Source: a virus. From it: a stretch of DNA of 64,000 nucleotides. Of the stretch, positions 8,344 to 59,018 are shown piece by piece. Location of the stretch: positions 1-64,000 of IMG/VR virus record IMGVR_UViG_3300050821_003228, one strand, 5' to 3'. A program made the translations under genes and the position numbers. Position 1 is the stretch's first letter; each line of letters begins with the position of its first letter. The notes under the pieces were generated by a model. That model searched no databases and was not told the origin of the DNA. It was given only the letters and a program-made list of their open reading frames with translations.

Positions 8344-10824
8344 TTATTTCTTCCAATAGACCTCCACGTTATAATCTGTCTCCATGACAAGCTTTTTAAA
8401 CTTCCGAGCAGCGGCTTCTTTAATGCATTGACTGATCAACTTTCCCATTTCTTCACCATGCCGCTTTGGAACCTTAATCAACAACTCATCATGAACCATT
8501 TTAATCAACTGTGCTTTATATTCCGGCAAACGGTGCCACAATGTTGCCATTGCAATTTTAATAATTGTGGCGTTCGTGCTTTGAATCGGGTGGTTCTTAC
8601 CTGCCCTCTCAATGCTTCCAGACATAGCTTTGAAGGCGTTACCAACTTCAAAATCAGTCGGCTTCCTGTGAGTCAATATCCACTTCTCGGAGTCAACATC
8701 AGATAGCCCACCTTCCGGCTTACGTCCCGTTTCAATGATAAAATCGCTGATATTCTTATCAGCAATCTTCTTGTCAAATAGAAGTTTTTCTTTCCTGTCT
8801 TCCTTCGCTTTATAGAGTGCCCGTTCCCAAGTCGGCTCTGGAAAGAGACGGCGACGGCCATACATATCAAACGACTTCTTTAACATCTTCGCTGACTTAC
8901 CAGATGCTTCTAAATAGGTCCAGAGGATCGGAAAACTCTGCCGATGCTTCTCTAGAATTTCCTTCGCCCGAGATAACGGTTTTTTCAACTGAGTAGCGAG
9001 ATTAGACGGCCCCCCACCATAAGGAATCAGGAAGTTCGGAACCTTCGTTTCATCACGAAGTTCCTTATGCTTAGGACAATTACATTTATATCTCTGTGGT
9101 TCTCCATCCTCTTTTAACTTGAAATAAGCACAATCATCTAACGCGAGAGTCGGCCATTCATCAGGATATTGAATCTCTGTACAAACCGCATGTAAATCTT
9201 CTCCACGATTAAAAGCATCAATCCAAACCGGTTCACCCGACAATTCGGCAAGAATACGAAGTTCAGCCCCACTCATATCGGCCTTTACATAAACCATTTC
9301 CTCCCCATCTTCATCAGGACCAACTATAAAGCAGGAACGAATTTCTTTCTCAGTTTTGATATTTTGCCCATTTGGATGTGAACTGCTTGAGCGGCCCGTT
9401 TCTGCTTCATACTGATTATACTGTGAATGTAATTTCCCATCGCCCGGATGTAGCCACCCCTCTTCTTTACAAGGATGAGTAGTCCACGTTTGTGTCCATG
9501 CCATACCATAAGTATTAATTTCTTTCGATAATTCACGATACTTCTGGATCAGTTTGATAACCGGGAATTGAGAGAACTCCTGAAGCGTATCATCGCCAGT
9601 GTCTTTCAACTTCGCTAACGTCTTATTCATCTGCCCGAGTGCTTCTATCAACTGCACGCCGGAATCGTAATTTATTAACGCCTCACCTTCACACTTATCA
9701 CTCAACTTTTTAATCTCAGAATACTTCCTACGAAGTGCGTAATGCTTCTCTTTCAGTAATTCTTTCTGATGTTTTCTCCCTTCCTCTAATCTGACTTGTT
9801 CCTCACGAAGTAACTGCTTCAGTGTTAAGTCTTTTTCTTTCCTGATTTGTGCCCGAAGATTGACTTCTTCATCTGTTACAATATTCAAACTCTTCCACTT
9901 CTTTTCAGCTTCATCAAGTTGCTCTTGTGTGATCGTTTCTTTCTTAGAACCAACAATCGGCAAGAAATGACGATCTAATTCATCAAGTGTATTTTTCAAG
10001 TCTTGTTTTCGGGCATCAATATTCTTCGTCCACTTCTCTTTATCAATATGCTCCCCATTGATATGCATGTCTACAAATGCGCCGATAGCGTTGTTCTCAA
10101 TCTCGGCTATTTCACGAAGATCATCACCAAAGAGATACTTCGGAAGATGATCTAATTGCTTCGTCATCTTGCCTGATAGAATAATATTCTGCATCGCTCT
10201 GATAGCAAGCGGAAGTCTTGTATCTAACGCGGCATATTCAATCTGCTCTTGTGTCAATGGACCAGTCAAATTGAATGACATCTGTAGCTCTTTATTAATC
10301 TGAACACCGAAATAGCGGGCCATCATGTTTTCCATATCATAGAATTCATAATGTTTCAGACTATGATCCCCGGCCCAAATACATCGCTCAACTAATGAAC
10401 AATCGAAGAATTTCCACGGACGTAACCCGAAATTCCAGCGCGAAGTCATGTACTCGAATGATAAATTTACTCCAACCCACGTAATTTTACCGCCCTCAAG
10501 GTGCGGCTGTAACATATCAAATAGTTTTTTTAATTTAGGCGCTTTATTTAAATTTTTACCAAAATATCCTTGACAATTTTGTAATAAATTTGTATCACCA
10601 TTACAAAGAGAAAGAAAATCTATTACGAATTGTTTATTTTGATTACCAAACTGAAATGTTCTACAATAACGCCAAAAATAATCTTTTGTTGGCAAAGTTT
10701 CACAGTCCCAACCAACATGGGACAAAGATTTTAAAAACGCATCAATTAAATCAAAACCATTCTCATCATTGATTATCACTGCTTGCAAGGGCGGATTCAA
10801 TATTAATGCCTTTGGCTCGTTCAT
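8344..10824 (-). CDS. polA: family A DNA polymerase with 3'-5' exonuclease
   Basis: Exo DCET and YAALD; TGRSSS; motif A KADMSGAELR; motif B R..K..NF...YG; motif C VHDEL. Confidence 0.95.
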   Translation of the reverse strand: MNEPKALILNPPLQAVIINDENGFDLIDAFLKSLSHVGWDCETLPTKDYFWRYCRTFQFGNQNKQFVIDFLSLCNGDTNLLQNCQGYFGKNLNKAPKLKKLFDMLQPHLEGGKITWVGVNLSFEYMTSRWNFGLRPWKFFDCSLVERCIWAGDHSLKHYEFYDMENMMARYFGVQINKELQMSFNLTGPLTQEQIEYAALDTRLPLAIRAMQNIILSGKMTKQLDHLPKYLFGDDLREIAEIENNAIGAFVDMHINGEHIDKEKWTKNIDARKQDLKNTLDELDRHFLPIVGSKKETITQEQLDEAEKKWKSLNIVTDEEVNLRAQIRKEKDLTLKQLLREEQVRLEEGRKHQKELLKEKHYALRRKYSEIKKLSDKCEGEALINYDSGVQLIEALGQMNKTLAKLKDTGDDTLQEFSQFPVIKLIQKYRELSKEINTYGMAWTQTWTTHPCKEEGWLHPGDGKLHSQYNQYEAETGRSSSSHPNGQNIKTEKEIRSCFIVGPDEDGEEMVYVKADMSGAELRILAELSGEPVWIDAFNRGEDLHAVCTEIQYPDEWPTLALDDCAYFKLKEDGEPQRYKCNCPKHKELRDETKVPNFLIPYGGGPSNLATQLKKPLSRAKEILEKHRQSFPILWTYLEASGKSAKMLKKSFDMYGRRRLFPEPTWERALYKAKEDRKEKLLFDKKIADKNISDFIIETGRKPEGGLSDVDSEKWILTHRKPTDFEVGNAFKAMSGSIERAGKNHPIQSTNATIIKIAMATLWHRLPEYKAQLIKMVHDELLIKVPKRHGEEMGKLISQCIKEAAARKFKKLVMETDYNVEVYWKK

Positions 10825-11463: not shown

Positions 11464-11880
11464 ATGAACGCTTTTACCGTTATGTTTGACGGCAGTTGTG
11501 CTCAAAATCCGGGCGGTATGGGCGCTTATGGTTATATCGTATACAAGGGCGCTGAAAAGATTCATGAAGGATACGGTAAAATCGGCCAATGGGACACGAT
11601 GACTAACAACTTCGCTGAATTTTATGCCCTCTATAAAGGATTAGAATATCTCTATTCTATCACAACCTTTCCTGTAATCATAGTCATAAAGGGCGATTCA
11701 GACTTAGTGATCAAAATTATGAGCAATAAATGGAAAGCGCGAAGGGATCGGCCATATTACAAAGCCTATGAAGAAGCGGCCAAATATGTCCGATTATTAC
11801 GAAACTCGGGCGGGCATCTGACGTTCAACTGGATACCAAGAGAGATGAATCAAGAATGTGACGACCTGAGTAAACGATAG
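11464..11880 (+). CDS. rnhA: ribonuclease HI-family protein
   Basis: FDGS..NPG, TNNFAE, GDSDLV, WIPRE.N..D. Confidence 0.9.
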   Translation: MNAFTVMFDGSCAQNPGGMGAYGYIVYKGAEKIHEGYGKIGQWDTMTNNFAEFYALYKGLEYLYSITTFPVIIVIKGDSDLVIKIMSNKWKARRDRPYYKAYEEAAKYVRLLRNSGGHLTFNWIPREMNQECDDLSKR

Positions 11881-12488
11881 AGACTTTAGACTCTAGTCGA
11901 AAGACTCTTGACAAGTGTTGTATAATTATAATAGTAGTAAAATACTGGTAGCTTCCCGGCACTGCGTATACCTTAATTAACGGGCCGATTGTTTGGCCAT
12001 TTTGTAATTGATACCGATAATTATCAAGTAACAGCGTAATCTGTTATCAAAATGGAATGTTAACCTGATGTAATTCCCGGCGATAGATGGAACCTATACT
12101 GAAAGGCATCAGAGGCATCAACTTTATCTCGTATTGTAGCGAGAGAGGAATAGAATATTGCAGGTAGCCAGAACTAACCCATCTGGAACTCAAGCTTGCT
12201 TACCAAGCCAGTGCAGTAATAACTACTTTAGTATCAACATCTTACAAGATATGCTAACGATACTAAAATTAGCTATTATTATTCTAGAATTCAATAATAT
12301 ACAACCAATTATCGAAATAAGACTAGCTTACTAACTTTCAGGTAGGGTTGAGCCGGGTTGTGTTTTTTAATATGTAATAAATACACTAATGTTTACTAAA
12401 CAGTAATAGCTAGTCAATTTGTTTACTTTATAGTAACTATTAAATATTTATTTTCTCTTTGTTTTCAATGGTTTATACTGTTTTGCTA

Positions 12489-45512: not shown

Positions 45513-45854
45513 TTGCCATACAAAGATGAAGGGTTACAAAAACTTGCTCAACATGAGCATTATTTAAGAAATAAAAAGTATTTTAAAGAAAGAACAAGAT
45601 TAAGACGAAAACAGCAAAGAGCATGGTTTCAGGAATTAAAATCAAAATTGGTTTGTAGTAATTGTCCTGAACCTGATTCAATATGCCTAGATTTTCATCA
45701 TCTTGATCCTAAAGATAAGAGCGATACTGTTTCAAAATTGGCAGCAGAATTACGAAATAAAGAAATAATTTTAAAAGAAATTGCTAAATGTATTGTTCTA
45801 TGCTCTAATTGTCATAGAAAATTACATAGAGATGAATATCAGCCTGTTGGGTAA
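45513..45854 (+). CDS. HNH endonuclease
   Basis: CSNC..LDFHH..K..E..KC.VLCSNCHR..H. Confidence 0.88.
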   Translation: MPYKDEGLQKLAQHEHYLRNKKYFKERTRLRRKQQRAWFQELKSKLVCSNCPEPDSICLDFHHLDPKDKSDTVSKLAAELRNKEIILKEIAKCIVLCSNCHRKLHRDEYQPVG

Positions 45855-45914: not shown

Positions 45915-45915
45915 T

Positions 45916-46002
45916 ACGGGTGTAAAACGGTAGTTGGGAGCCGTCTCGCTTTGGAAGCGAGAGATAAGATCACTAGAGGTCCGAATCCTCTCACCCGTAC
46001 CA
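45916..46002 (+). tRNA. atypical tRNA-Pro(TGG)
   Basis: CTCGC-TTTGGAA-GCGAG, extended V region, A1-U72, CCA. Confidence 0.75.
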
Positions 46003-46477: not shown

Positions 46478-46680
46478 TTTTGATGGGAAGTTGGCTTAGA
46501 AGCAGCCATCTTTTAAAGAGTAGCACTGAACGTGGAACCACTTAAAAAATAGGGCACTCAATTTTAAAACCTATTTGATCCTATACAGGCGGTATAGGTT
46601 GAGGACAGTCCCGTATTGAGCGTTTCTCAGGACGGCCATTTGGCCGATAACACTTTTGGCGTAATAGCACACCATCAAAA
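46478..46680 (+). ncRNA. 23S rRNA H43/H44 (L11-binding, GTPase-associated centre)-like RNA with ~137-nt insertion
   Basis: GTTGGCTTAGAAGCAGCCATC.TTTAAAGA and GCGTAATAGC blocks closed by TTTTGATGG/CCATCAAAA. Confidence 0.85.
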
Positions 46681-47289: not shown

Positions 47290-47354
47290 TGACGTGGTGA
47301 AGAGTAGAGTTACTTCTCGATTAGAAAAAACACTCTACTCGTTTGTTCCCGTCA
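47290..47354 (+). ncRNA. Y-RNA-like 1 (minimal)
   Basis: TGGTGA..AGTTACTTC..TCGTTTGTTCC motifs shared with three paralogues; terminal stem. Confidence 0.7.
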
Positions 47355-49136: not shown

Positions 49137-49937
49137 TTGAGCAAAGTATTGGATGCTGCTACAAAGCTTGTAACTAAAGAGGAAGCTGAAACTGAAAAAT
49201 TATTGAGTGAAGCGGCATTGCGTCGTTTTCGTCTTGAATCGGAGAGAAAGAATGGCCCGAAAGAAGATGAACTGATTCTTGCCCGTCGTCAGGCTGAAGT
49301 TGAAAAAATTAAGAATGAGTCTCAGAAGGCCCACTTTGAAGCGGCCTGTGCGGAATTGATTTTCAATAACGCAAAACGTGAAGAAGATAAGATTCTGACT
49401 GGCGACCGTTATAACAAAGTTTATCGCTTTGTTCATGAAGTTTGTCATGAATCTGTCGCTGACTGTATGATGATTCTTTCTCGTTGGTCGCGTCTTGAGC
49501 CGGAATGTGCGATGGAAATCGTATTCTGTTCGCCCGGTGGAAGCATTATTGACGGTTTCGCTCTTTTCGATTTTATCCAAGATTTGAAAGCAAAGGGCCA
49601 TAAGGTCACTACAAAATCAATCGGTTATGCTGCAAGTATGGCAGGTGTATTGTTACAGGCCGGAAGTGATCGAGTGATGGGCCGTGAATCGTGGCTTTTG
49701 ATTCATGAAGCTTCATTCTTTGCGATGGGTAAAATCGGCGCGGTTGATGATACGGTTGAATGGATCAAAAGGATGTGTGATCGTATTGTAGACATTTTCG
49801 CTGAACGTGCATCCGAGAAAACTGGAAAATCAGTAAAGGCAATTCGGGCAACAATTAAAAAGAATTGGCTTCGTAAAGATTGGTGGCTTTCTGCTGACGA
49901 GGCGCTAGAGTACGGTTTTTGTGATCGTATTAGTTAG
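49137..49937 (+). CDS. clpP: ClpP-family serine protease with N-terminal coiled coil
   Basis: SPGG, AASMA, IHE, D.WLSA.EALEYG..D. Confidence 0.9.
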   Translation: MSKVLDAATKLVTKEEAETEKLLSEAALRRFRLESERKNGPKEDELILARRQAEVEKIKNESQKAHFEAACAELIFNNAKREEDKILTGDRYNKVYRFVHEVCHESVADCMMILSRWSRLEPECAMEIVFCSPGGSIIDGFALFDFIQDLKAKGHKVTTKSIGYAASMAGVLLQAGSDRVMGRESWLLIHEASFFAMGKIGAVDDTVEWIKRMCDRIVDIFAERASEKTGKSVKAIRATIKKNWLRKDWWLSADEALEYGFCDRIS

Positions 49938-49945
49938 GAGAGAAT

Positions 49946-50155
49946 ATGTCAGTTAATGAAGCAATAATGTTTATACATCCGCTAGATTTTGTAAGAATGC
50001 TGAATCATCGTGATGGTCCGATTGATATTATATTTCGGAAATTACACGGTCTTCAGGTGAATGAAGTTAATGGTGTAATATATTATCAAACGGTTGAAGT
50101 GCCAGAAACGCTTCAAGATGCAGAACCGGCCAACTGTTGGCCGTATAAATTTTAA
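49946..50155 (+). CDS. hypothetical protein
   Basis: AGGAG SD. Confidence 0.5.
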   Translation: MSVNEAIMFIHPLDFVRMLNHRDGPIDIIFRKLHGLQVNEVNGVIYYQTVEVPETLQDAEPANCWPYKF

Positions 50156-50158
50156 AGT

Positions 50159-50254
50159 TTGTAGTGGTGATTGATAGAGATACTTCAAGGTGAAAGTTGA
50201 CTAATACTCAACGTGCTGTCGAAAGCACAAGCCTCTGTCGCTTGTTCCCTACAA
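50159..50254 (+). ncRNA. Y-RNA-like 4
   Basis: Same motifs; two distal hairpins. Confidence 0.7.
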
Positions 50255-50263
50255 TTAAGTTTT

Positions 50264-50338
50264 GCCCGTATCGTCTAAAGATAAGGCCCACGCCCGATTA
50301 GCGTGAGATGATCGGTTTAATTCCGACTACGGGTACCA
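50264..50338 (+). tRNA. tRNA-Ile(GAT), atypical loop
   Basis: CACGC-CCGATTA-GCGTG, CCA. Confidence 0.8.
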
Positions 50339-50340
50339 AT

Positions 50341-50415
50341 GCTCGGCTAGTAGAGTGGCTATAACACTTCTCCTACAAAGAAGAGAGCAAGGTTCGATTC
50401 CTTGGCTGAGTACCA
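50341..50415 (+). tRNA. tRNA-Val(TAC)
   Basis: CTTCT-CCTACAA-AGAAG, CCA. Confidence 0.85.
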
Positions 50416-50423
50416 TTTTTATT

Positions 50424-50743
50424 GAGGCAATAACTCGGCACCTGACTGAATAAGGATTGCCAGTCCTCAAAGTATGGGATAGCTAACCGAGAGGTTACTA
50501 TTCTAGTTGTTGCGTAATCGCTACATAAAGGTCTAAATAGTGGCTCTAGATCGAGAGCCATGACGTAAGGACACGACAAATCGTCTATTATACATAGAGA
50601 TGGCTGTATCGTGCTGTGAGTAACCATACTCACCAGACATTAACTGTTAGAGTAATTACCTAACAGGTCTGTGACCGAATAATGAGGCGTTTACTGCGAA
50701 CTTATGGGTATTCTCAAATCCCATGATGCTGAGTTATTGCCTC
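50424..50743 (+). ncRNA. unassigned 320-nt structured RNA
   Basis: 17-bp closing stem GAGGCAATAACTCGGCA/TGCTGAGTTATTGCCTC, many internal hairpins, flanked by tRNAs. Confidence 0.75.
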
Positions 50744-50746
50744 TAT

Positions 50747-50822
50747 ACCGGGATCGTTCAACATCCGAGGACGGTTGCCTTTGAAGCAATTTATCTAGGT
50801 TGGAATCCTAGTTCCGGTGCCA
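50747..50822 (+). tRNA. tRNA-Gln(TTG)
   Basis: GTTGC-CTTTGAA-GCAAT, G73, CCA. Confidence 0.85.
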
Positions 50823-50857
50823 TTTTTCACAAGGCATTGTTTAAAAGTGCGACGGGA

Positions 50858-50890
50858 GCGCGGCTCGGATTAATTTCCGGGCCGTTTTTA
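50858..50890 (+). terminator. intrinsic terminator
   Basis: GCGGCTCGGA..TCCGGGCCGT followed by T-run. Confidence 0.7.
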
Positions 50891-50901
50891 TTGGAGTAAT
50901 T

Positions 50902-51180
50902 ATGAAGTGTGGAAACTGTTATCAAGAACAGCCGTGTAAATGTATTGTGAACACTCCAATTCATGAGCACCAAAAAATTAAATCTAGAACGAATGGACAA
51001 GAATATGAAATTATGTTTGGTCCTCAACCTGGAAATTTAGTTCCGGCTAACCCATTTGCCTCAAAACTTCAAAGTCGATTTGCTCATGCTAATCCTGATA
51101 AGTTTGGTGGCAAAAAGGGATTAGAACATTGGGATAAGGTTACTAACTACTCTAGTTTACCTGAAAAGAAGGAAGGGTAA
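50902..51180 (+). CDS. small phage protein
   Basis: PF.SK.Q.RF.HA..WD..T..LPEK motif. Confidence 0.6.
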   Translation: MKCGNCYQEQPCKCIVNTPIHEHQKIKSRTNGQEYEIMFGPQPGNLVPANPFASKLQSRFAHANPDKFGGKKGLEHWDKVTNYSSLPEKKEG

Positions 51181-57410: not shown

Positions 57411-57414
57411 TTTT

Positions 57415-57489
57415 GGGCGCGCACCTTCTGGTGAAGGCTCAAGTTTGTGAAGCTTGTAGAAATACATTCGATTTGTAGCGTGCCCTCCA
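57415..57489 (+). tRNA. tRNA-His(GTG), possible 8/4 fold, U73
   Basis: GGGCGCGC/GCGTGCCC acceptor, 4-bp T-stem. Confidence 0.8.
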
Positions 57490-57494
57490 TTTTT

Positions 57495-57645: not shown

Positions 57646-57646
57646 T

Positions 57647-57720
57647 GCACTTGTAGCATAATGAAATGCCCCATACTTGTAATATGGCTTATGTCGGCCC
57701 ATTGCCGATCAAGTGCTCCA
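57647..57720 (+). tRNA. tRNA-Thr(TGT)
   Basis: CCATA-CTTGTAA-TATGG; aberrant T-loop. Confidence 0.8.
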
Positions 57721-57728
57721 TTTTTATT

Positions 57729-58769: not shown

Positions 58770-58941
58770 AGTCGGGCCGGGGAGAGAGGTTAAATGGGAA
58801 CTATGCCTATTCTCACAAGTGATTCCCACAACGGTCCATCAATTTTTGAGTAGCCCACATTGCTGAGGCAAGGCCAGCCCAAAGATAAACGGAAGAGAAA
58901 GCACCACAGCCTAGCGCCGTTTCTCAAAAACCAATTTTTAT

Positions 58942-59018
58942 GGCGAGTTAGTAGCGTAGGACAATACGAGAGGCTCATAACCTCTAAACGGTGCGTGCAA
59001 ATCCACCACTCGCAACCA
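58942..59018 (+). tRNA. initiator-like tRNA-Met(CAT)
   Basis: 1:72 mismatch, AGAGG-CTCATAA-CCTCT. Confidence 0.8.

What the first reader, a model, noticed from the sequence alone, without database searches (positions are those of the whole stretch)
50424..50743. Orphan 320-nt multibranch RNA excisable from the tRNA transcript
Seen: 17-bp terminal stem and at least seven internal hairpins (TAACC-GAGA-GGTTA, TGGCTCT/AGAGCCA, GTGAGTA/TACTCAC, CAGAC..CTGTTAG/CTAACAG..GTCTG, ATGGG/CCCAT), no + strand ORF, lying within 9 and 4 nt of tRNA-Val and tRNA-Gln so tRNA processing would release it. I see no RNase P, tmRNA, SRP or group I signature. Large orphan RNAs such as GOLLD and ROOL occur in phage tRNA clusters, but this one is shorter.
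Basis: partly seen in the sequence, partly recalled or inferred. Interest (0 to 1): 0.7.

Follow-up and report, generated by a model that had tools for sequence, protein, structure and literature searches.

The report
Abundant orphan structured RNA in phage tRNA operon
A soil phage carries, between two of its tRNA genes, a 320-base stretch that folds into an unusually stable many-armed RNA; its central 240 bases or so stand in soil RNA libraries far deeper than the neighbouring genes, and it matches no known RNA family, so it is a real but so far one-of-a-kind phage RNA whose job is unknown.

Summary
Window 50424-50743 (+) lies 8 nt after tRNA-Val(UAC) and 3 nt before tRNA-Gln(UUG). It folds into a 17-bp closing stem plus two multi-helix junctions. 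MFE is -116.6 kcal/mol, z -6.2 to -6.9, and no shuffle folds as well. It has no internal ORF.

No Rfam 15 family matches, even at E up to 10. That covers RNase P, tmRNA, SRP, 6S, group I, ROOL and GOLLD.

New evidence: RNA-library contigs from three soil metatranscriptomes lie 100% identical on the core (50449-50701 taken together). In one run the core's depth is 126, against about 3 for the flanking phage contigs. So a stable, abundant RNA exists. The closing-stem arms are not in those contigs, and the RNA's ends and strand are not measured.

No homologue was found in IMG/VR, metagenome contigs, GTDB genomes or the phage database, so covariation cannot be tested.

One relative phage has, in the same tRNA-Ile/tRNA-Gln slot, a 76-nt element with the same closing-stem letters. 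That relative also carries a true RNase P RNA elsewhere in its tRNA array.

Best reading: a new, orphan, trans-acting structured RNA excised from the tRNA precursor. It is of the same kind as ROOL, GOLLD and T4 RNAC/RNAD, and its function is only inferred.

The scan had noted this same stretch before on this genome, and on no other DNA.

The parts
50264..50335 (+). tRNA-Ile(GAU), first tRNA of the local run; missed by ARAGORN
   Evidence: Rfam RF00005, 34.4 bits
50341..50415 (+). tRNA-Val(UAC) with encoded CCA; its 3' maturation would free the 5' side of the element
   Evidence: ARAGORN and Rfam, 48.1 bits
50424..50440 (+). P1 5' arm of the 17-bp closing stem. Its outer letters, TTGAGGCAA, are shared with the 76-nt element in the same slot of relative L011.
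   Evidence: Fold and pair probability 0.98; inverted repeat I1; L011 comparison
50445..50473 (+). H2: hairpin with an asymmetric internal loop, GAAUA opposite CAA
   Evidence: MFE helices
50475..50505 (+). H3: 13-bp hairpin capped by a GAGA (GNRA) tetraloop
   Evidence: MFE helices, pair probability 0.89-1.0
50510..50699 (+). D4: long interrupted stem (15 bp, with a second GAAUA/AAA internal loop) leading to a five-way junction. The junction carries hairpins 50540-50561, 50569-50615, 50616-50633 and 50634-50671.
   Evidence: MFE helices, pair probability 0.8-1.0; used for model R1
50702..50726 (+). H5: last hairpin before the closing stem
   Evidence: MFE helices, pair probability 0.96
50727..50743 (+). 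P1 3' arm
50449..50701 (.). Union of the stretches held by RNA-library contigs of three soil metatranscriptomes: 50449-50686, 50452-50691 and 50459-50701, all 100% identical to the window
   Evidence: read-laying table 8; depth 125.8 in X2 against 2.8-3.3 on the flanking contigs
50747..50822 (+). tRNA-Gln(UUG); RNase P cleavage at its 5' end would free the 3' side of the element
   Evidence: ARAGORN and Rfam, 47.3 bits
50860..50892 (+). Intrinsic terminator (10-bp stem, 7 G-C pairs, then a T run) that closes the tRNA/RNA transcription unit before the next ORF at 50902

Best explanation
The stretch encodes a genuine non-coding RNA on the + strand of a roughly 98-kb soil phage, made as part of a polycistronic transcript (Y-like RNA, tRNA-Ile, tRNA-Val, this RNA, tRNA-Gln, terminator).

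Shown:
- It folds far better than chance into a closed, many-armed structure.
- Its core accumulates in RNA libraries well above the neighbouring phage sequences.
- It belongs to no catalogued RNA family.

Inferred:
- Host RNase P cutting at the 5' end of tRNA-Gln, together with 3'-end maturation of tRNA-Val, releases a 331-nt precursor. Its ends are clamped by the 17-bp stem, which extends to 21 bp if the flanks are included.
- The stem then either protects the ends or is removed by a double-strand-specific nuclease such as RNase III. Removal would leave a core of about 255 nt (H2, H3, D4). I put the odds at about 40% for removal and 60% for retention.
- The mature RNA acts in trans during infection as a stable scaffold or decoy that binds a host or phage factor. 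It lies in a gene island devoted to translation and RNA quality control: about 30 tRNAs, Ro60 with Y-like RNAs, a 23S GTPase-centre look-alike, GroES, ClpP, and a tmRNA elsewhere in the genome.

The existence of a stable RNA I hold at about 0.85. Release by tRNA processing I hold at about 0.6. The scaffold or decoy role I hold at about 0.3.
For: Structure: MFE -116.6 kcal/mol, z -6.15; for the exact 320 nt z -6.9; most helices have pair probability 0.9 or more; 31% unpaired against 40% in shuffles.

Strand: every gene and tRNA in the local operon (about 45.1-51.2 kb) is on +. The + fold has 11 G.U pairs against 5 on the - strand, and the one G.U in P1 would be a C.A mismatch on the - strand.

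Expression: contigs from RNA libraries X2, X4 and X5 lie on 50449-50686, 50452-50691 and 50459-50701 with no differences. X2 depth is 125.8 on the core against 2.8-3.3 on the contigs over 49900-50161 and 50197-50397, and nothing lies on 50720-51100. Uniform DNA carry-over would not give a 40-fold step.

Co-transcription: the X3 contig 50178-50430 runs from the Y-like element through both tRNAs into P1. A terminator follows tRNA-Gln, and the consensus scan finds no promoter-like site on the + strand between 49471 and the element.

RNase P separating polycistronic tRNA transcripts is established in E. coli (abstract of PMC4176162, listed).

Not a known family.

Context: TROVE/Ro60, Clp protease and Cpn10 by Pfam; 23S look-alike.

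Slot conservation: relative L011 has a stem-closed 76-nt element between tRNA-Ile(gat) and tRNA-Gln(ttg) whose stem begins TTGAGGCAA and ends TGCCTC, as here, although the flanking tRNA-Gln acceptor stems differ.
Against: - No homologue, so there is no covariation. The structure rests on thermodynamics alone.
- All the expression evidence comes from assembled contigs. Depth is one figure per contig, the strand is unknown, and the three 'studies' are soil projects of 2018 that may be one campaign.
- The contigs leave out P1 and H5, so the 320-nt form is not seen as RNA.
- The minus strand folds about as well (z -7.9).
- A very stable spacer fragment could accumulate without having any function.
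- Nothing ties the RNA physically to Ro60 or to any other neighbour. It lacks the Y-like scaffold motifs.
Confidence: 0.6

Rival explanations
1. A cis-acting spacer or processing by-product. The long stem brings the 3' end of tRNA-Val and the 5' end of tRNA-Gln together, as the processing stems of rRNA operons do. The excised piece persists only because it is so stable, and it has no function of its own.
For: Only the closing stem is shared with the 76-nt element in the same slot of L011; the interiors are not significantly alike. P1 is absent from the RNA contigs, as expected of a processing stem. There are no homologues elsewhere.
Against: About 290 nt folded into two ornate junctions is far more than a processing stem needs. 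The other long inter-tRNA spacers of this phage are less structured. A depth of 126 against about 3 points to marked accumulation.
Confidence: 0.2
2. A self-assembling RNA-only particle of the ROOL/GOLLD kind: copies join through loop-loop and A-minor contacts into a multimer.
For: It has the same genomic habitat (phage tRNA islands) and high abundance, as reported for ROOL and GOLLD. Two hairpins end in self-complementary loops, GAUC at 50549-50552 and AAUU at 50654-50657. The junction strands are A-rich, with 45% A among unpaired bases.
Against: There is no sequence or model similarity to ROOL or GOLLD. It is about half the length of ROOL. Four-base palindromic loops follow automatically from near-perfect DNA palindromes. 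The A enrichment is only z 1.9.
Confidence: 0.1
3. A relic of a mobile or self-splicing element (a MITE-like insertion with 17-21-bp terminal inverted repeats, or a decayed intron) that is transcribed only because it sits in an operon.
For: Terminal inverted repeat of 21 nt at 90%. The size difference from the L011 slot, 320 against 76 nt, could reflect an insertion. Homing HNH genes sit in the same tRNA arrays.
Against: It is single-copy in the genome. There is no target-site duplication next to the arms. No group I or II signal appears in Rfam at E up to 10. No copies were found in 2.9 million viral contigs carrying the arm sequence beside a tRNA. The interior is far more structured than a MITE needs to be.
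Confidence: 0.06
4. A radically diverged RNase P RNA or other ribozyme that replaces the RNase P RNA carried by the relative phage.
For: Relative L011 has a 322-nt class A RNase P RNA in its tRNA array (148.7 bits). This genome has none but has an RNA of the same size with a long end-to-end stem.
Against: No RF00010 signal even at E up to 10. The universal CR-I (GGAAAGUC) and CR-V (ACAGAA..GGCUUA) motifs are absent (sequence). The helix order does not fit P1-P4. The L011 RNase P gene is not in the syntenic slot; that slot holds the 76-nt element.
Confidence: 0.03

Closest known systems
ROOL (RF03087) and GOLLD (RF01998) RNAs
   Same: Large, elaborately folded RNAs of phages and prophages, often next to tRNA islands, abundant, with function unknown.
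   Different: No match to either covariance model. About 320 nt here, against about 580 nt for ROOL (own knowledge) and over 800 nt for GOLLD. The secondary structures are unrelated. No conserved family or multimer has been shown here.
Phage T4 RNAC and RNAD (species 1 and 2 stable RNAs)
   Same: Stable small RNAs encoded with the phage tRNA genes (own knowledge) and still of unknown function (PMC9697503).
   Different: The T4 RNAs are roughly 120-140 nt (own knowledge). This RNA is two to three times longer and multi-junctioned.
Functional tRNA-operon spacers such as the E. coli 3'ETS of leuZ (an sRNA sponge)
   Same: An RNA released as a side product of tRNA precursor processing that then acts in trans (own knowledge, Lalaouna et al. 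2015).
   Different: That spacer is short and acts by base pairing. Here no complementary target of more than 13 nt exists in the phage genome, and the RNA is almost fully folded.
Bacterial RNase P RNA class A (RF00010), as carried by relative phage L011
   Same: Similar length (322 nt in L011), a long stem joining the 5' and 3' ends, and a location inside a phage tRNA array.
   Different: No model match and no CR-I or CR-V motifs. It is not in the same slot.
Bacterial and phage Y RNAs bound by Ro60
   Same: Ends paired in a stem with a variable interior; encoded 1.7 kb from a Ro60 (TROVE) gene, which has Y-like elements nearby.
   Different: It lacks the scaffold motifs shared by this phage's Y-like elements (UGGYG ... 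UUGUUCC, seen in the sequence at 47290-47354 and at L011 11329-11888). It is also much longer.

Membership tests
RNase P RNA class A (RF00010) | Covariance-model score at or above 100 bits | tested here: not met
   No hit at gathering score, at E up to 10 on 341 nt, or in the whole-genome family search, whose controls rang in 11 of 14 genomes.
RNase P RNA class A (RF00010) | Conserved CR-I (GGAAAGUC) and CR-V (ACAGAA..GGCUUA) strands forming P4 | tested here: not met
   The motifs are absent from 50416-50746. They are present in the L011 positive example.
ROOL (RF03087) / GOLLD (RF01998) | Match to the family covariance model | tested here: not met
   All 4227 Rfam models were scanned. Only two chance hits appeared, at E 4-6 (Afu_199 and one manA hairpin).
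ROOL / GOLLD (as a kind, not a family) | Encoded in phage or prophage near a tRNA island, and abundant | tested here: met
   It lies between two tRNAs in a phage with about 30 tRNAs. RNA-library depth is 126 against about 3.
ROOL / GOLLD (as a kind) | Homo-oligomeric assembly | not testable with these tools
   Needs native gel, mass photometry or cryo-EM.
Y RNA (Ro60 ligand) | Terminal stem carrying the Ro60-binding scaffold shared by the phage's own Y-like elements | tested here: not met
   P1 is a plain 17-bp duplex with no UGGYG or UUGUUCC motif.
Group I intron (RF00028), tmRNA, SRP RNA, 6S RNA | Match to the family model | tested here: not met
   No hits at E up to 10. The phage's own tmRNA is elsewhere, at 7493-7769 on the - strand.
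rRNA-fragment look-alike (like the 23S GTPase-centre copy at 46490-46519) | Local sequence identity to 16S, 23S or 5S rRNA | tested here: not met
   blastn-short against the E. coli rrnH operon gave only 10-mers inside the element. The positive control at 46490-46519 gave 29/30, E 7e-9.
Conserved structured RNA family (any) | Homologues with compensatory base changes | tested here: inconclusive
   No homologue was found. The RNA-library contigs carry no variants.

The most novel reading that the evidence does not exclude
This is the founding member of a new class of ornate phage RNAs. A conserved 'slot' between tRNA-Ile/Val and tRNA-Gln is bounded by a fixed closing stem, and its interior has expanded from 76 nt (relative L011) to about 290 nt. 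This parallels the 'fixed scaffold, variable cargo' design of the same phages' Y-like RNAs. The mature RNA would be an abundant effector of host takeover. It could be a decoy for a host factor or nuclease that targets the translation apparatus, or a self-assembling RNA particle.
Probability: 0.25. Interest if true: 0.75.

Novelty: new variant of a known kind. Interest (0 to 1): 0.55.

Why it matters
Large, well-folded bacterial and phage RNAs without a known function are few (OLE, ROOL, GOLLD, raiA, T4 RNAC/D). Each has opened new RNA structural biology. Here is another candidate of that kind from a little-studied group: soil phages whose nearest cultured relative infects Acidobacteriota. Unusually, there is already environmental evidence that it accumulates to high levels.

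It sits in a striking island that also holds Ro60 with several Y-like RNAs and a near-exact copy of the ribosome's GTPase-associated centre. It may therefore be one piece of a phage toolkit aimed at host translation or RNA surveillance.

It is short enough (255-320 nt) for direct chemical probing and cryo-EM. Its weakness is that it is a singleton: without relatives its structure and importance rest on folding energy and expression alone.

Tried and rejected
Homologue hunt, all negative:
- blastn (distant mode) against 50,697 phage records.
- blastn and nhmmer against 55 loci around Ro60 relatives from IMG/VR and metagenomes.
- The same against 58 loci around relatives of the downstream 92-aa ORF. 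None of these is next to tRNAs.
- Exact-pattern scans of IMG/VR with the P1 arm (4 chance single sites), with junction strands around a variable hairpin (0 hits), and with the P1 bracket at 290-320 nt spacing (34 hits near the chance expectation, none near tRNAs or similar).
- A 17-mer scan of 185,579 GTDB species genomes (17 seed-only hits).
- BLAST on 401 genomes of the class of an Acidobacteriaceae MAG.
- Single-sequence covariance model R1 of the five-way junction on 620 kb of relatives, on five whole relatives including Tunturiibacter phage Tunturi_3, and with filters off on 80 kb (best E 0.21).
- Model R2 of the L011 mini element on 482 kb (only a terminator-like hairpin).

Tools and limits:
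The contigs of the 64-71% identical ORF92 relatives P0002-P0006 could therefore not be inspected.

Other checks that led nowhere:
- A chained alignment of the L011 76-nt element to this RNA is not significant beyond the closing stem (z 1.7, 16 of 300 shuffles).
- The 332-nt L011 spacer 12054-12385 and the 448-nt L034 spacer are protein-coding: an HNH gene and a probable secreted protein.
- No antisense target in the phage genome.
- No loop-loop complement longer than 5-6 A/U-rich bases.
- The resemblance of the H3 loop (C-GAGA-G) to the sarcin-ricin loop is limited to 7 nt without the bulged-G motif, and was dropped.
- The manA hairpin hit (9.7 bits, E 4.2) and the snoRNA hit (E 5.6) are chance.
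- The supplement of the IMG/VR structured-RNA survey is not held.

Parts of the stretch without RNA-contig cover (50398-50448 and 50702-51100) are not counted as evidence of absence.

Full report
**What the window is.** The window is the first 64 kb of a 97,817-bp IMG/VR virus record with direct terminal repeats, rated complete. It encodes a large terminase, a portal protein and a family-A DNA polymerase. ARAGORN and Rfam together find about 30 tRNAs in three islands. A permuted tmRNA lies at 7493-7769 on the minus strand.

The nearest cultured phage by terminase (52.9% identity over 98%) is Tunturiibacter phage Tunturi_3. It is a 97.6-kb podovirus of an Acidobacteriota host from Finnish tundra soil. 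It has only 3 tRNAs and no match to the element.

**The observation.** The element at 50424-50743 lies between tRNA-Val(tac) 50341-50415 and tRNA-Gln(ttg) 50747-50822. Rfam also finds a tRNA-Ile(gat) at 50264-50335.

The + strand folds to -116.6 kcal/mol (z -6.15; no shuffle as good). For the exact 320 nt, z is -6.9 over 200 shuffles.

The fold has these parts:
- A 17-bp closing stem (P1).
- Two hairpins, H2 and H3. H3 has a GAGA tetraloop.
- A long arm, D4 (50510-50699), that opens into a five-way junction with four hairpins.
- A last hairpin, H5.

Most helices have ensemble pair probabilities of 0.9 or more.

Per nucleotide (-0.35 kcal/mol) it is the most stable of the long (over 200 nt) inter-tRNA spacers in this phage and in the relatives' loci examined; only two short spacers (80 and 99 nt, -0.34) come close. 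No ORF lies inside it, and the overlapping frames have no Pfam match.

**Strand.** The minus strand folds about as well, so energy alone does not give the strand. However, every gene and tRNA in the local operon (about 45.1-51.2 kb) is on +. The + fold uses 11 G.U pairs against 5 on the - strand. The single G.U in P1 would be a C.A mismatch on the - strand.

**Known families.** Rfam 15 gives nothing at gathering score on the whole window or on the rest of the genome. On the element alone at E up to 10 it gives only two chance hits. A dedicated RF00010 search of the genome is empty, although its controls ring. There is no local similarity to E. coli 16S, 23S or 5S rRNA. In the same test, 46490-46519 matches 23S positions 1059-1088 at 29 of 30. 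The element is therefore not RNase P, tmRNA, SRP, 6S, a group I intron, ROOL, GOLLD or an rRNA copy.

**Expression.** Five soil RNA libraries and the likely source DNA library hold words of 50100-51000. Four RNA runs were laid on 49900-51100.
- Runs X2, X4 and X5 each hold one contig lying wholly inside the element: 50449-50686, 50452-50691 and 50459-50701, with no differences from the window.
- In X2 that contig has depth 125.8. The contigs over the ORF upstream (49900-50161) and over the Y-like element and tRNAs (50197-50397) have depths 2.8 and 3.3. Nothing covers the ORF downstream.
- Run X3 holds a contig, 50178-50430, that runs from the Y-like element through tRNA-Ile and tRNA-Val into the first 7 bases of P1.

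A 40-fold step between adjacent stretches is not what DNA carry-over gives, so a stable RNA accumulates.

The limits of this evidence:
- These are assembled contigs, so strand, true ends and levels are not measured.
- The runs may belong to one campaign.
- Neither arm of P1 nor H5 is in the abundant contigs. Either cover fades towards the ends, or P1 (21 bp with its flanks) is a processing stem that is removed. Removal would leave H2-H3-D4, about 50445-50700.

**Transcription unit.** An intrinsic terminator follows tRNA-Gln at 50860-50885. The consensus scan finds no promoter-like site on the + strand between 49471 and the element. With 8 and 3 nt of spacer, cleavage by RNase P at tRNA-Gln and 3' maturation of tRNA-Val would release the element. 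This is inference from the known role of RNase P in separating polycistronic tRNA transcripts (PMC4176162 abstract).

**Relatives.** The neighbouring Ro60 (TROVE) gene brought in 10 viral and 38 metagenome loci. None contains the element by blastn, nhmmer or covariance model. Searches with exact patterns in IMG/VR and GTDB genomes, with the downstream ORF's relatives, and in 401 genomes of an acidobacterial class also failed. The RNA-library contigs carry no variants. Covariation therefore cannot be tested.

**One informative relative.** The phage behind L003, L011 and L022 (Ro60 61% identical; 109-kb complete record) has 26 tRNAs around Ro60. Between its tRNA-Ile(gat) and tRNA-Gln(ttg), the same slot as here, lies a 76-nt stem-closed element at 8354-8429. 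Its stem begins TTGAGGCAA and ends TGCCTC, the same letters as the outer end of P1. The acceptor stems of the flanking tRNA-Gln genes, by contrast, differ.

The interiors are not significantly alike, and the small element has no other relatives in the loci held. So the slot and its closing stem are conserved, while the interior is 4 times larger here.

The same relative carries a bona fide, reduced class A RNase P RNA (322 nt, 148.7 bits, with CR-I and CR-V intact) elsewhere in its tRNA array. This genome has none, but the element shows none of the RNase P hallmarks.

**Interpretation.** The evidence supports a real, abundant, highly folded RNA that is specific to this phage lineage. Its biogenesis from the tRNA precursor is likely. 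Its function is not shown.

By habitat, size class and abundance it belongs with ROOL, GOLLD and T4 RNAC/RNAD, whose functions are also unknown. By sequence and structure it belongs to none of them.

I favour a trans-acting scaffold or decoy role linked to the surrounding translation and RNA-surveillance genes, at about 0.3. The main rival is a cis-acting or functionless stable spacer, at about 0.2.

A large survey of IMG/VR structured RNAs required at least three occurrences and would have missed a singleton like this one.

**Verdict.** I class it as a new variant of a known kind, with interest 0.55. No look-alike on other DNA is on record.

Noticed in passing
L011:7047-7368 (also in L003 and L022): A 109-kb soil phage related to this one encodes a genuine bacterial class A RNase P RNA of 322 nt (148.7 bits; CR-I and CR-V intact; the model regions for P13/P14 and P18 are deleted). 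It lies inside the tRNA array, 6 nt before tRNA-Thr. I found no report of phage-encoded RNase P RNA in the paper library.
   Followed up: partly
window 46490-46519 (element 46478-46680): 29 of 30 bases are identical to E. coli 23S rRNA 1059-1088, the GTPase-associated centre (E 7e-9).
   Followed up: partly
L011:8354-8429: A 76-nt stem-closed element in the tRNA-Ile(gat)/tRNA-Gln(ttg) slot shares the closing-stem letters of P1. It is not a tRNA by ARAGORN or Rfam, and no further relatives were found.
   Followed up: yes
window 50264-50335: tRNA-Ile(GAU), found by Rfam (34.4 bits) but missed by ARAGORN. Its anticodon loop reads CCGAUUA, so position 33 is C.
   Followed up: partly
window 57411-57494, 57646-57728, 45915-46002, 58940-59016: Inter-tRNA spacers of 83-88 nt with 7-8-bp closing stems or tRNA-like ends. 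They are probably further tRNAs or tRNA-like RNAs that the finders miss.
   Followed up: no
L011:11329-11417, 11506-11630, 11654-11888 and 8515-8580; window 47290-47354: Y-like RNAs next to Ro60 share the motifs UGGYG ... UACUUC ... UUGUUCC but carry very different interiors. One has a T-arm-like module (Rfam tRNA partial hit at 11520-11574) and one has an insert of about 180 nt.
   Followed up: partly
window 45513-45854; L011:12088-12423: HNH endonuclease genes sit inside the tRNA arrays of both phages (weak Pfam HNH hit for the window gene; the two share a C-terminal CxNCH motif).
   Followed up: partly
L048 (Ga0210383_10101264, 2424 nt): This is the closest relative seen (Ro60 85% identical over residues 12-194). 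It has the same tRNA order (Asn, Pro, Pro, Phe, Tyr, Gln) but much shorter spacers. The contig ends inside Ro60, so the slot of interest is missing.
   Followed up: partly
window 7493-7769 (-): A permuted (two-piece type) tmRNA, RF04321 at 65.1 bits, on the strand opposite to the neighbouring tRNA genes (5700-7017).
   Followed up: no
window 50413-50431, 50820-50838, and other tRNA 3' ends: The tRNAs of this phage (about 98 kb) whose 3' ends were read carry an encoded CCA followed by a run of T (CCATTTT). The L011 phage has CCAATTTT. This is a shared 3' trailer signature of unknown meaning.
   Followed up: no
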